IMG/VR virus record: IMGVR_UViG_2541047502_000029
Source: a virus
Taxonomy: Duplodnaviria; Heunggongvirae; Uroviricota; Caudoviricetes
DNA: 25,642 nucleotides
Reading direction: 5' to 3' (one strand)
Shown here: one piece after another, positions 12,401 to 15,400 of the stretch
Layout of the letters: each line of letters begins with the position of its first letter
How positions within the stretch are numbered: position 1 is the stretch's first letter
Program-made: the position numbers

Positions 12401-15400
12401 GTTGCTCCGAAGTGTTTCGCTACGCAATTGCAACGGGTAGGGCGGAGTACAATCCTGCGGCTGATCTCTCCAGCGCTCTCGAAGTACACCAATCCAATCA
12501 TTTCCCATTCCTAAAAGCTGATGAGATACCTGATTTTCTACGTGCCTTAGAGGGTTACTCCGGGAGTAAGCTTGTCCAGATAGCCACGAAATTACTGATG
12601 ATTACGGGTGTGAGAACCATCGAATTACGCGCGGCATTATGGCAAGAATTTGATCTGGATAACGCTATTTGGGAAATTCCTGCTGAAAGGATGAAAATGC
12701 GTAGGCCACATCTTGTGCCCTTATCATCTCAAGCGGTAGATTTACTCAATGAACTCAAGATCATGACAGGGAACTATCGTTATGTTTTTCCAGGGCGGAA
12801 CGATCCGAATAGGCCAATGAGCGAAGCGAGTATAAATCAAGCCATTAAGCGTATTGGGTATGGAGGAAAAGTCACTGGACATGGTTTTCGTCATACCCTT
12901 TCTACAATCCTGCATGAGCAAGGTTTTGAGAGTGCTTGGATTGAAATCCAGTTGGCTCATGTAGATAAAAATTCTATTAGGGGGACTTATAACCATGCTC
13001 AATATTTTAGTGGAAGGAAGTCTATGATGGACTGGTACAGTAATTTGATATTTGAAAGACTAAAAAGGAGTTAATTTGTGTCTCAACCACTTTCGGAAAT
13101 ATTGACATGGGATGATGAACAATGGGAGGTATTTGTCCATGATTGGCTTATTGTCTGTAAATCAGATGATTACCCGTGGAGCGAACGTTTGGGAGGAGCT
13201 GGAGATAAAGGTAGAGACGTTGTTGGATATAAATCGGATCCTAACGTAGAAGGTTATTCTTGGGATAATTATCAATGCAAACTGTACAAAAAAAGTTTAG
13301 GGTTCTCTGATGTTGTAGTTGAGTTTGGAAAACTTATCTATTTTACTCTGAATGGTGATTATCCCATCCCTCAGAAGTACTTTTTTGTGGCACCCTATGA
13401 TTTATCTACTACATTTTCTAATTTATTGAAAAATAAAAACGAGCTTAAAAAAGCAGTCCTTGATTCATGGGATTCAGCAATTTCAAAAAAATAACTAAAA
13501 AGATTGATATTCCATTAGATGATGAAATAAAAAAATATATTGAGGATTTTGATTTTAGTATTTTTTACTCTCTACCCTTATCATTGATTTTAAATGATAT
13601 TGCAAATACACACCTTTATTTTAAGTACTTTAACGAGCTGTATGTCGTGAGAATCCCTCCAAATGAAATTCCAACATACAATTCAAAAAAAGAGTCTGTA
13701 TATGTTAATGCACTGCTTCAAGCCTATTCAGAGCATGGAAATAAAACTTATAGTTCTTTCTTAGAGCTTGATGATCCATACAGACGACACTTTAATAATA
13801 GTAGAAATGATTTTTATTTTGCATCTTCGCTTGAGGTTTTTGTCCGCGAAGTATTTAAAGATGATGTATTCAAAGCATTGAAATGTTACATTTCATCTTC
13901 AATTGAACCCGTCTTTTATGAAGACCATAATTATGCATTTATTAGGTGTAATGCAGTCTTGAAGCAGGCTGTTCTGACACCAATTGCACATTCAGTACTA
14001 TCAAAAATATGTGAAGCAAATGATAAAAAAGGAATATGCCATCATTTGGTTAATGATGGTGAAGTAATTTGGACGGTGAGATAATGGTTAGAATTTATAA
14101 TTCAAGTTTAGAAGTGGCATGTCGAATGGCGAAAGTGCTCGTCGCTATTTATCCTTCTTCATTAAGCCTTGAACGGCTTATTTGTTTTGATTTTATTTTA
14201 GTAAATCTTAAGGATTTTTTACCTGAAGAGATTAGTCTTCATCCTCCAATACCCCGTAGAGATGCTCAGTTAGCCCTAAAACGAGAGATTGTTTTAGAAT
14301 CATTGGCTTTGTTGCAAGGCTATGAACTAGCCTCAAAAATTTATACACATCGTGGTTTTGTATATAAAGCTTCTGAAAAAACATATGCATTTACAAATTC
14401 TCTACATAATGAATATGTTGCGCAGATGGAGCATAATATAAATTTGGTGGTTAAGTTATATAGTGATATTCCTGATGAGCAGTTGCAATCAATTATAAAA
14501 AATAAAATTGGCAAATATGATATGGAATTTAATTATGAATGACAATTTTTTTACGTTCAGAAAAATAAAGGTAACCGGATTCAATAAATTAGATGCTATA
14601 ATTGAATTTGGTTCTAAATTGACTATTTTATATGGTGGTTCTGACTCTGGAAAAACATACATATATTATTTGATTCGATATTTATTAGGGAGTGAAAAAC
14701 TAAAAAATAAAGATATCGATCATGCTCAAGGTTATGATTTAGCCTATCTGGAATTTAATTTTCAAGGTAGGGTAATGACAATTGAGAGGTCTCTTCAGGA
14801 TAGCGCCCATTACAGATTATATGATTCGAGCATTGAAAATGTTAGTGAAGCTAATCTGTTGATGGTTTTTTCCAAAAGTGCTTCGTCTAAAAAGAGTTTT
14901 TCATCATACTTTTATGGTAGGTTGAATTTCAAAGAGGCTAAAGTAAGAACAAACTTAAGTAATACTCTTCATAAATTTAATCTTAATAATGTTTTTGAAT
15001 TTTTTTGTATTGATGAATTAAGAGTGTTAACTGAGAAGTCGTTAATTCTTTCTGATATTCCTAGCGAGGAGACAAAAAGAAAGTCTGAATTTAAATTCCT
15101 TTTAACTCAGAGAGATGATACTAACTCCTTAGCAGAAAAACCAAATAAAAAAGCAAGATATTTTTAAAAAAATCAAATTGCAAATATTTATGAGGAATTG
15201 AAAGCGCAATTAATTTATCCTGAATATGATCAAGTCATTGTTTCAAGAGAACTTGAGAAAGTAGAGCAAGATATTGAATCATCGAAAGATATATTGAAAG
15301 GTATTGTTGATGCACTTGATGATAAGAAGCAATTATTAAAAGAGTTAAGTGATGAATTATATTCAATCAGTGACAGGGAAAAATACTTATCATTACTCAT

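What the first reader, a model, noticed from the sequence alone, without database searches (positions are those of the whole stretch)
13461..13500. Slippery heptamer A AAA AAA followed directly by TAA links the first two cargo ORFs by a -1 shift
ORF 13078-13494 ends ...TCA AAA AAA TAA. A -1 slip on A_AAA_AAA (13485-13491) enters the frame of ORF 13467-14084, which has no SD of its own and whose frame is closed just upstream by TGA at 13461-13463. This is either programmed -1 frameshifting (dnaX-like, stop-enhanced), a phase-variable homopolymer, a recent inactivating indel, or a sequencing error. A fused product would be roughly 340 aa, a size compatible with a nuclease effector.
Basis: seen in the sequence. 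Interest (0 to 1): 0.55.

Follow-up and report, generated by a model that had tools for sequence, protein, structure and literature searches.

The report
Frameshifted, decayed Lamassu defence gene
The two overlapping ORFs are the two halves of one anti-phage nuclease gene (Lamassu LmuA) that lost one A from an A8 run, inside a defence operon that is also broken elsewhere: an ordinary pseudogene, not programmed recoding.

Summary
ORF 13078-13494 ends TCA AAA AAA TAA, and a -1 shift on the A7 run (13485-13491) enters ORF 13467-14084.

The two ORFs are the N- and C-terminal halves of one gene, lmuA. It encodes the Mrr-type nuclease effector of a short Lamassu (ABC-3C) defence system. The system is cargo of the P4-like satellite prophage Sp2 of E. 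coli O157:H7.
- ORF1 matches LmuA profile positions 10-140 and ORF2 matches 141-333.
- 119 of 120 homologues are single proteins of about 335 aa that span the junction.
- Adding one A (A8) restores a gap-free alignment with intact orthologues.
- Those orthologues do not conserve the slippery site.

The neighbouring sensor gene lmuB is broken twice, by an in-frame TAA and by a second 1-nt deletion. O55:H7 shares the lmuA lesion and one lmuB lesion, lacks the TAA, and has a private extra deletion. That is stepwise neutral decay.

An 81-nt stretch around the A7 tract is identical in all 308 complete E. coli genomes that carry it. This excludes sequencing error and phase variation. No 3' stimulatory structure is predicted.

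Some accidental -1 slippage on A_AAA_AAA is plausible, but it cannot rescue a system without LmuB. Verdict: a fixed inactivating indel, of low interest.

The parts
11714..24600 (+). P4-like satellite prophage (Sakai 'prophage Sp2, P4-like phage'), which carries the Lamassu cargo between int and psu
   Evidence: The Sakai annotation was mapped with offset 298914. Homology with O55:H7 begins at 11685. Core genes were confirmed by Pfam.
11893..13074 (+). P4-type tyrosine integrase (intS, ECs_0289). The longest ORF starts at 11842.
   Evidence: Pfam Arm-DNA-bind_3, Phage_int_M and Phage_integrase; RefSeq annotation.
13078..13494 (+). lmuA 5' fragment (ECs_0290, 138 aa). It encodes the Mrr-like PD-(D/E)xK nuclease domain and retains the invariant residues D43, D47, Q66 and K68.
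   Evidence: Matches PADLOC LmuA PDLC03852 positions 10-140/336, E=9e-41.
13485..13491 (+). A7 tract: the site of a 1-nt deletion from an inferred ancestral A8. It is also an A_AAA_AAA heptamer followed by TAA.
   Evidence: Adding one A gives a gap-free alignment with orthologues (WDSAISKKITKK against WDESISKKISKT). The tract is identical in 308/308 genomes.
13467..14084 (+). lmuA 3' fragment (ECs_0291). The part homologous to LmuA starts at the A-tract (about 13491) and includes the CTD6 domain that docks onto LmuB/LmuC.
   Evidence: Matches PADLOC LmuA positions 141-333/336, E=3.9e-44. Pfam CTD6 covers fused residues 206-332.
14084..14542 (+). lmuC (ABC-3C middle component 2, ECs_0292), 152 aa, apparently intact
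   Evidence: Pfam MC2 E=6e-30; PADLOC LmuC E=2.5e-36. Orthologues are 152-159 aa.
14535..16354 (+). lmuB pseudogene (SMC/Rad50-like ABC ATPase, ECs_0293), split into three ORFs: 14535-15167, 15198-15788 and 15788-16354
   Evidence: The three ORFs match LmuB PDLC03863 positions 3-199, 231-412 and 428-608. Sakai annotates it as a pseudogene.
15165..15167 (+). In-frame TAA nonsense codon in lmuB, derived from TTA (Leu)
   Evidence: Orthologues have Leu here (SFLKGQ/VFLKKQ). O55:H7 RM12579 still has TTA.
15734..15737 (+). A4 run in lmuB, where a 1-nt deletion (inferred from A5) shifts the frame by -1. O55:H7 shares this lesion.
   Evidence: The frame-0 to frame-2 switch was located by alignment with orthologues. 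Adding one A restores the spacing and a full-length match.
16764..18342 (-). P4 core genes delta (16764-17036), psu (17042-17593) and sid (17590-18342)
   Evidence: Pfam Ogr_Delta, Psu and Psu-like; Sakai annotation.
19276..22978 (+). P4 core genes alpA, ash/epsilon-like, two small ORFs and the alpha primase-helicase (20588-22978)
   Evidence: Pfam Phage_AlpA, Phage_ASH, Zn_Ribbon_Prim, Toprim_3, D5_N and Pox_D5.

Best explanation
ORF 13078-13494 and ORF 13467-14084 are the two halves of a single gene, lmuA. It encodes the nuclease effector of a short, Mrr-type Lamassu (ABC-three-component) anti-phage system, lmuA-lmuC-lmuB. The system sits in the int-psu cargo hotspot of the P4-like satellite prophage Sp2 of E. 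coli O157:H7.

An ancestral A8 tract lost one A by replication slippage. The resulting A7 tract puts TAA in frame and leaves the C-terminal 197 residues in the -1 frame. Those residues include the CTD6 domain that tethers LmuA to the LmuB2-LmuC sensor.

The same operon has lost its sensor. lmuB carries a second 1-nt deletion and, in O157:H7, a TTA>TAA nonsense codon. The whole system is therefore a decaying pseudogene cluster, fixed in the O55:H7/O157:H7 lineage.

Shown here: gene identity, the position and nature of each lesion, fixation, and the order of some events. Inferred: the ancestral A8, loss of function, and low-level accidental -1 slippage on A_AAA_AAA. That slippage may yield traces of full-length LmuA, but it is a by-product of where the deletion happened, not a selected mechanism.
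For: 1. One gene.
- The fused product matches LmuA PDLC03852 positions 10-333/336 in one stretch, E=8e-89.
- ORF1 alone matches positions 10-140 and ORF2 alone matches 141-333.
- An AF2 model of the 68%-identical orthologue (pLDDT 93.8; residue 138 ends helix 120-138) has solved Lamassu LmuA chains as its top PDB hits: 9nxx, 9ny1, 9hqx, probability 0.99-1.0.

2. Orthologues are uninterrupted.
- 119/120 homologues span fused residues 120-160 in a single HSP. The only exception is E. coli's own fragment.
- Xenorhabdus, Serratia (also in a P4-like element next to int) and a metagenome contig have lmuA of 334-335 aa, lmuC of 152-159 aa and lmuB of 604-609 aa, all intact.

3. The slippery site is not conserved. 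The orthologous codons are AGT AAA ATA (Xenorhabdus), CAC AAA ATC (Serratia) and AGT AAA AAA ATA in frame (metagenome). The E. coli sequence aligns without a gap once one A is added.

4. The operon partner is dead. lmuB has TAA at 15165-15167 and a -1 shift at 15734-15737. The repaired version matches LmuB positions 3-608/610, E=2e-117.

5. Decay was stepwise.
- O55:H7 RM12579 shares the lmuA A7 and the lmuB 15734-15737 shift.
- It has TTA instead of TAA, and its own extra deletion in the A6 run 15697-15702.
- 7 of the 8 substitutions between the two lineages in the operon are non-synonymous.
- Other strains add a further 1-nt deletion (13121) or IS-mediated damage.

6. The lesion is fixed. 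The 81 nt around the tract are identical in 308/308 complete genomes that carry them.

7. No stimulator. The 79 nt downstream fold at -5.9 kcal/mol with z=+1.1.

8. Literature.
- A_AAA_AAA is much less shift-prone than A_AAA_AAG in E. coli (PMC5009743).
- The LmuA CTD docks on LmuB/LmuC in an A1B2C1 complex, and interface mutants abolish defence (PMC12663957).
- Sp2 neither excises, replicates nor packages in Sakai (PMC2669165).
Against: - No intact allele closer than 68% identity was found. The ancestral A8 is therefore inferred from alignment, not observed.
- A(C)-AAA-AAA can support substantial -1 frameshifting in E. coli under overexpression: 25-60% at C-AAA-AAA in pDEST17 (PMC1851650). 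A non-trivial amount of full-length LmuA cannot be excluded.
- The ORF1 nuclease motif and lmuC are still intact, and the lesion has been stably retained across hundreds of genomes. This is equally expected for a young neutral pseudogene.
- No expression data were examined.
Confidence: 0.93

Rival explanations
1. Programmed -1 ribosomal frameshifting, dnaX- or IS3-like and enhanced by the stop codon. Ribosomes would slip on A_AAA_AAA to make a fixed ratio of a 138-aa nuclease domain and a 335-aa full-length LmuA, both functional.
For: A canonical X_XXY_YYZ heptamer lies in the zero frame, directly followed by TAA. ORF2 lacks its own SD. AAA-AAA sites are shift-prone in E. coli (PMC1851650). 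The arrangement is stably retained in 308 genomes.
Against: - The arrangement exists only in one clonal lineage. 119/120 homologues are single ORFs, and the heptamer is not conserved in orthologues.
- No downstream structure is predicted.
- The only upstream SD-like bases are the conserved Trp-Asp codons TGG GAT.
- The essential partner lmuB is broken by two further lesions and keeps acquiring more.
- A_AAA_AAA is a poor shifter relative to A_AAA_AAG (PMC5009743).
Confidence: 0.02
2. Phase-variable (contingency) homopolymer. The A-tract would switch between A7 (off) and A8 (on) by replication slippage, toggling a costly abortive-infection nuclease.
For: A homopolymer lies inside the coding sequence of a potentially toxic defence effector, and one extra A restores the frame.
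Against: All 308 complete genomes carrying the locus have the identical 81-nt sequence with A7, and no A8 or A6 variant was seen. A 7-8 nt tract is short for efficient switching. lmuB is irreversibly broken by a nonsense codon.
Confidence: 0.01
3. Sequencing or assembly error in a homopolymer; the real genome has A8 and an intact lmuA.
For: Homopolymer indels are the commonest long-read and 454 error.
Against: The sequence is identical in 308 independently sequenced complete genomes, including Sanger-era Sakai and EC4115 and also O55:H7.
Confidence: 0.005
4. Functional gene fission. ORF1 would act as a free-standing Mrr-like nuclease, and/or ORF2 as an effector-less CTD adaptor, each with its own role.
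For: The break falls at the end of a helix between the nuclease fold and the C-terminal helical region. ORF1 keeps all invariant catalytic residues. A natural Lamassu clade lacking the effector domain has been described (PMC12663957).
Against: ORF2 has no SD, and its first 8 codons are out-of-frame sequence. Its binding partner LmuB is destroyed. Some strains have further frameshifted or deleted ORF1. Between O55:H7 and O157:H7, 7 of 8 substitutions in the operon are non-synonymous.
Confidence: 0.02

Closest known systems
Short Lamassu / ABC-3C system with an Mrr-type LmuA effector (LmuA-LmuC-LmuB; DdmABC-like)
   Same: The gene order is lmuA-lmuC-lmuB.
- LmuA has an N-terminal PD-(D/E)xK (D..D..QxK) nuclease and a CTD6 domain.
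- LmuC belongs to MC2.
- LmuB is about 606 aa when repaired, with Walker A (GGSDSGKT), a VVLDS Walker B-like motif and a CEFC zinc-hook-like motif.
- Structural top hits are solved LmuA chains.
   Different: This copy is not intact. lmuA is frameshifted and lmuB carries a nonsense codon plus a frameshift, so it cannot assemble the A1B2C1 complex described in PMC12663957. The effector is Mrr-like rather than the Cap4 of the solved V. cholerae system.
Defence cargo in the P4-like satellite hotspot between int and psu
   Same: The architecture is identical: P4 int, cargo, then (cos) psu-delta-sid, alpA, ash and alpha. The Serratia orthologue sits in the same kind of element.
   Different: PMC13586616 reports that recognisable defence pseudogenes are rare in P4-like elements (<1% of P4 pseudogenes) and that systems are usually swapped while still functional. 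Here a decayed system has persisted. The satellite is immobile in Sakai (PMC2669165).
Programmed -1 frameshift sites of E. coli (dnaX A_AAA_AAG; IS3-family orfA-orfB, e.g. IS1203/IS629)
   Same: A lysine-codon heptamer lies at an ORF overlap with the downstream ORF in the -1 frame.
   Different: The heptamer is A_AAA_AAA, not A_AAA_AAG. There is no 3' hairpin or pseudoknot and no conservation in orthologues. In contrast, the IS1203 copy inserted into this same element in Xuzhou21 is annotated with a programmed frameshift and a pseudoknot.
Adventitious -1 slippage at (C/A)-AAA-AAA that rescues 1-nt deletions (Gateway pDEST17 attB1)
   Same: The same AAA-AAA lysine tandem, in E. coli, lies upstream of sequence that needs a -1 shift (PMC1851650).
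   Different: That case was measured under T7 overexpression. Nothing has been measured here, and rescuing LmuA alone would not restore the system.

Membership tests
Lamassu (short type, Mrr effector) / ABC-3C | LmuA: N-terminal effector domain plus a Lamassu-specific C-terminal domain | tested here: met
   The fused product matches PADLOC LmuA positions 10-333/336, E=8e-89. Pfam CTD6 E=2e-29. Invariant D43/D47/Q66/K68 are present. The fold matches solved LmuA chains 9nxx, 9ny1 and 9hqx.
Lamassu (short type, Mrr effector) / ABC-3C | LmuC middle component encoded between lmuA and lmuB | tested here: met
   Pfam MC2 E=6e-30 and PADLOC LmuC E=2.5e-36; 152 aa, as in orthologues.
Lamassu (short type, Mrr effector) / ABC-3C | LmuB: SMC/Rad50-like ABC ATPase of about 600 aa | tested here: met
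Lamassu (short type, Mrr effector) / ABC-3C | All three components encoded as intact ORFs (a functional system) | tested here: not met
   lmuA has a 1-nt deletion at 13485-13491. lmuB has TAA at 15165-15167 and a 1-nt deletion at 15734-15737.
Lamassu (short type, Mrr effector) / ABC-3C | Anti-phage or anti-plasmid activity | not testable with these tools
   Requires plaque assays with the native and the repaired operon.
Programmed -1 ribosomal frameshifting | X_XXY_YYZ slippery heptamer in the zero frame at the ORF overlap | tested here: met
   A_AAA_AAA lies at 13485-13491 in the ORF1 frame. Three other in-frame copies nearby have no frame change.
Programmed -1 ribosomal frameshifting | Two-ORF arrangement and shift site conserved among orthologues | tested here: not met
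   119/120 homologues are single ORFs. The site reads AGT AAA ATA or CAC AAA ATC in orthologues.
Programmed -1 ribosomal frameshifting | Stimulatory elements (3' hairpin or pseudoknot, 5' internal SD) | tested here: not met
   The downstream 79 nt fold at -5.9 kcal/mol with z=+1.1; 172/200 shuffles fold at least as well. The upstream region has only TGGGAT, the conserved W-D codons.
Programmed -1 ribosomal frameshifting | Measured frameshift product at a defined ratio | not testable with these tools
   Needs a reporter assay, western blot or ribosome profiling.
Phase-variable homopolymer (contingency locus) | Tract length varies among closely related isolates | tested here: not met
   The 81-nt query around the tract is 100% identical in all 308 genomes that carry it.
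P4-like satellite | P4-type int, psu, sid, delta, alpA and alpha primase-helicase in P4 prophage order | tested here: met
   Pfam hits. The Sakai record labels the region 'prophage Sp2, P4-like phage'.

The most novel reading that the evidence does not exclude
The A7 allele could act as a 'savior indel'. After the LmuB sensor was lost, full-length LmuA would be unrestrained and toxic. The 1-nt deletion in the A-tract would then have been selected to throttle it. Leaky -1 slippage on A_AAA_AAA-TAA would still supply a trace of full-length nuclease, or the free Mrr domain would retain some role. Separately, the locus is a rare documented case of a defence system decaying in place in a P4-like satellite, rather than being swapped while functional.
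Probability: 0.04. Interest if true: 0.4.

Novelty: already known. Interest (0 to 1): 0.1.

Why it matters
It matters little as a mechanism. It is a textbook homopolymer indel that inactivates a gene.

Its practical value is for annotation.
- RefSeq lists ECs_0290 and ECs_0291 as two real proteins ('hypothetical protein' and 'ABC-three component system protein').
- In most O157:H7 records RefSeq also lists the three lmuB pieces as separate proteins.
- All five are fragments of a dead Lamassu-Mrr system and should be marked as pseudogenes.
- Defence-system censuses that count this locus as Lamassu in O157:H7 would overestimate functional immunity.

It is also a datable example of a defence system decaying in situ in a stranded P4-like satellite. 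Two lesions predate the O55:H7/O157:H7 split, and further lesions are private to each lineage. A recent survey reports that such decay is rare (PMC13586616).

Tried and rejected
- The genome-contig scan with the fused LmuA found only one distant (32% identity) Clostridia locus.
- A sequence search of the PDB with the fused LmuA gave no significant hit. Membership was instead shown by a fold search on a model of the orthologue.
The 68%-identical, equal-length Xenorhabdus orthologue was used instead.
- A search for att direct repeats within 11300-23200 found nothing useful, and there is no tRNA in the window. The element boundaries were taken from the Sakai annotation instead.
- A Xenorhabdus contig (L003) seemed to truncate lmuB at almost the same codon as the E. 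coli TAA. It is a contig end with divergent terminal bases, not a shared stop.
- A distant blastn search of E. coli genomes for divergent intact alleles found only copies at >=99% identity.
- The first literature query failed on syntax.
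Full report
**1. The observation**

- ORF1 starts at GTG 13078 behind an AAGGAG Shine-Dalgarno. It ends TCA AAA AAA TAA (13483-13494).
- The A-run is seven A (13485-13491).
- ORF2 (ATG 13467 to TAA 14082-14084) lies one base back, in the -1 frame. That frame is closed by TGA 13461-13463.
- There is no SD-like motif before ATG 13467.
- Re-reading one A, or adding one A, gives a 335-aa product.

The heptamer alone is unremarkable. This stretch is 30.9% G+C and has six runs of A>=7 in 3.3 kb. Three other in-frame A_AAA_AAA heptamers have no frame change attached.

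**2. What the ORFs are**

The fused product matches the PADLOC LmuA profile PDLC03852 over positions 10-333 of 336 in one stretch (E=8e-89). It also matches Pfam CTD6 of the ABC-three-component systems. Scanned separately, ORF1 covers profile positions 10-140 and ORF2 covers 141-333. They are therefore consecutive halves of one protein, with nothing missing or duplicated.

The downstream genes complete a Lamassu system.
- lmuC (MC2 family, 14084-14542) is 152 aa and looks intact.
- lmuB is present as three collinear ORFs that match profile positions 3-199, 231-412 and 428-608 of 610.

An alignment of 60 family members shows the invariant residues D43, D47, Q66 and K68, an Mrr-type PD-(D/E)xK motif. 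All of them lie in ORF1. Ile139, the first residue after the junction, is nearly invariant.

An AlphaFold2 model of the 68%-identical, equal-length Xenorhabdus orthologue has a mean pLDDT of 93.8. It places residue 138 at the end of helix 120-138. Its best PDB matches are solved Lamassu LmuA chains (9nxx, 9ny1, 9hqx; probability 0.99-1.0), followed by restriction endonucleases and Cap4.

**3. Genomic setting**

The window is E. coli O157:H7 (100% identity to many complete genomes). In strain Sakai the locus is annotated as 'prophage Sp2, P4-like phage'. The genes are intS (ECs_0289), ECs_0290 and ECs_0291 (the two lmuA pieces), ECs_0292 (lmuC) and ECs_0293 (an 'AAA family ATPase' pseudogene, which is lmuB). 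They are followed by delta, psu, sid, alpA, ash and the alpha primase.

The Lamassu operon therefore sits in the int-psu cargo position of a P4-like satellite. Asadulghani et al. (PMC2669165) found that Sp2 does not circularise, replicate or get packaged, and that its P2-like helper Sp13 is defective.

**4. Orthologues**

Of 120 homologues returned for the fused protein, 119 span fused residues 120-160 in a single alignment. Nearly all are 330-380 aa. The only exception is E. coli's own 197-aa fragment.

The closest intact relatives are 56-68% identical. They come from Xenorhabdus bovienii, a metagenome contig, and Serratia marcescens, where the operon again lies next to a P4-type integrase at proBA. 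All have lmuA of 334-335 aa, lmuC of 152-159 aa and lmuB of 604-609 aa.

Around the site the proteins align without gaps: WDSAISKKITKK in E. coli with one A added, against WDESISKKISKT, WDQSIASKISSK and WDKSIGHKITSK. The orthologous DNA reads AGT AAA AAA ATA, AGT AAA ATA and CAC AAA ATC. The ancestral E. coli allele therefore most probably had TC-A8-TAAC, and the present A7 is a 1-nt deletion. The slippery motif is not a conserved feature of the family.

**5. The rest of the operon is also broken**

In lmuB the first break is an in-frame TAA at 15165-15167, where orthologues have Leu (..RYF*KNQ against ..SFLKGQ). The second is a -1 frame change at the A4 run 15734-15737. Changing TAA to TTA and adding one A gives a 606-aa protein that matches LmuB positions 3-608/610 in one stretch (E=2.3e-117).

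Comparison with O55:H7 RM12579 is informative.
- It shares the lmuA A7 and the lmuB 15734-15737 shift.
- It still has TTA at 15165-15167.
- It has its own extra 1-nt deletion in the A6 run 15697-15702.
- Of the 8 substitutions separating the two lineages in the operon, 7 are non-synonymous.

Individual O157:H7 strains add further damage.
- Strain NE 1092-2 has a deletion at 13121.
- Xuzhou21 and related strains have IS1203 inserted in int.
- Strain 4276 has lost int and most of ORF1 through IS activity.

This is the signature of neutral, progressive decay after an initial inactivation.

**6. Excluding the other readings**

- Sequencing error and phase variation. An 81-nt query centred on the tract is 100% identical in all 308 complete genomes that carry it. 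These span many sequencing technologies and include O55:H7.
- Programmed frameshifting. The arrangement is confined to one clonal lineage and the site is not conserved. The 79 nt downstream fold no better than shuffled sequence (-5.9 kcal/mol, z=+1.1). The only SD-like bases upstream are the conserved Trp-Asp codons. The product would have no sensor to work with.

According to Haudiquet et al. (PMC12663957), the LmuA CTD docks on LmuB2-LmuC, the complex senses DNA ends, and it releases LmuA to tetramerise. Interface mutants abolish defence. LmuA without LmuB is therefore not a defence system.

**7. What may still happen at the site**

Lysine tandems are intrinsically slippery in E. coli. Belfield et al. 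measured 25-60% -1 frameshifting at C-AAA-AAA under T7 overexpression (PMC1851650). The Atkins et al. review notes that A_AAA_AAA is much less shift-prone than A_AAA_AAG (PMC5009743). Some full-length LmuA may therefore be made by accident. I regard this as a by-product of the deletion having occurred in an A-tract, not as a selected mechanism. I could not measure it.

**8. Comparison with what is known, and novelty**

The system is a member, now defunct, of the short Lamassu family with an Mrr-type effector, carried as P4-satellite cargo. Both are well described. The frameshift is an ordinary homopolymer indel.

The only mildly unusual aspect concerns a recent survey of P4 and P2 hotspots (PMC13586616). 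It reports that recognisable defence pseudogenes are rare and that systems are usually swapped while functional. Here a dead system has lingered since before the O55:H7/O157:H7 split, plausibly because the satellite itself is stranded.

The practical consequence is for annotation. Most RefSeq records list five separate 'proteins' where there are two pseudogenes. Sakai marks only lmuB as a pseudogene.

**9. Verdict**

Best explanation: a fixed 1-nt deletion (A8 to A7) in lmuA, within a decaying Lamassu-Mrr operon (confidence about 0.93). Interest is low (0.1). Novelty: already known.

Noticed in passing
window 14535-16354: lmuB, the SMC-like Lamassu sensor, is split into three ORFs. The causes are an in-frame TAA (15165-15167, from TTA) and a 1-nt deletion at the A4 run 15734-15737. 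Most RefSeq records annotate the pieces as three separate proteins; Sakai marks a single pseudogene, ECs_0293.
   Followed up: yes
L010 (O55:H7 RM12579), equivalent to window 15166 and 15697-15702: O55:H7 lacks the TAA nonsense codon (it has TTA). It carries a private 1-nt deletion in the A6 run. 7 of the 8 substitutions against O157:H7 in the operon are non-synonymous, so the two sister lineages are decaying independently.
   Followed up: yes
L014 (Xuzhou21), L015 (strain 4276), L008 (NE 1092-2): Some O157:H7 strains carry further strain-specific damage to Sp2. IS1203 is inserted in the P4 integrase in Xuzhou21. Strain 4276 has an IS-associated deletion that removes int and most of lmuA ORF1. 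NE 1092-2 has an extra 1-nt deletion at window 13121.
   Followed up: partly
window 268-6387: This stretch is a Mu/P2-type tail and baseplate module (DNA circularisation protein, baseplate J and others). Only about 97 O157:H7 genomes contain this version. Sakai and FORC_044 instead have the lambdoid cI/cro/cII/O/P remnant of Sp1 upstream of the same tail-fibre/pin segment. This suggests prophage module replacement at the thrW site.
   Followed up: partly
window 6399-8528: Oppositely oriented tail-fibre and tail-fibre-assembly genes lie next to a pinE DNA invertase (7929-8528). This looks like an invertible host-range segment.
   Followed up: no
window 8589-11337: Between Sp1 and Sp2 lie a LEM-3-like GIY-YIG nuclease gene (8589-9413, minus strand), an AraC-family regulator (10178-10930) and a partial IS3-family element (about 10972-11337). 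A G7 run lies at 9577-9583.
   Followed up: no
window 23111-24067 (minus strand): This 318-aa ORF at the right end of Sp2 (ECs_0304) has no Pfam hit and contains a C7 run (23236-23242). PGAP flags it as 'frameshifted' in FORC_044, while Sakai annotates it as intact.
   Followed up: no
window 13078-16354 against the flanks: The Lamassu cargo is 30.9% G+C. The integrase is 44.8%, the P4 core about 50% and the upstream prophage 53%. This fits recent horizontal origin from an AT-rich donor. The nearest intact orthologue, at 68% identity, is in a Xenorhabdus prophage.
   Followed up: partly
L003 7459-8103 (Xenorhabdus bovienii GCA_022095095.1): Here lmuB appears truncated at 210 aa, almost the same codon as the E. 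coli TAA. The contig ends there with divergent terminal sequence, so this is probably an assembly break at a repeat or IS, not a shared stop.
   Followed up: partly
window 11300-23200 and the whole window: No att-like direct repeat of >=15 nt was found in the part searched, and no tRNA gene lies in the window. Sp2 lies immediately downstream of Sp1, which occupies thrW in Sakai. It may therefore have integrated into a secondary or duplicated att site.
   Followed up: partly
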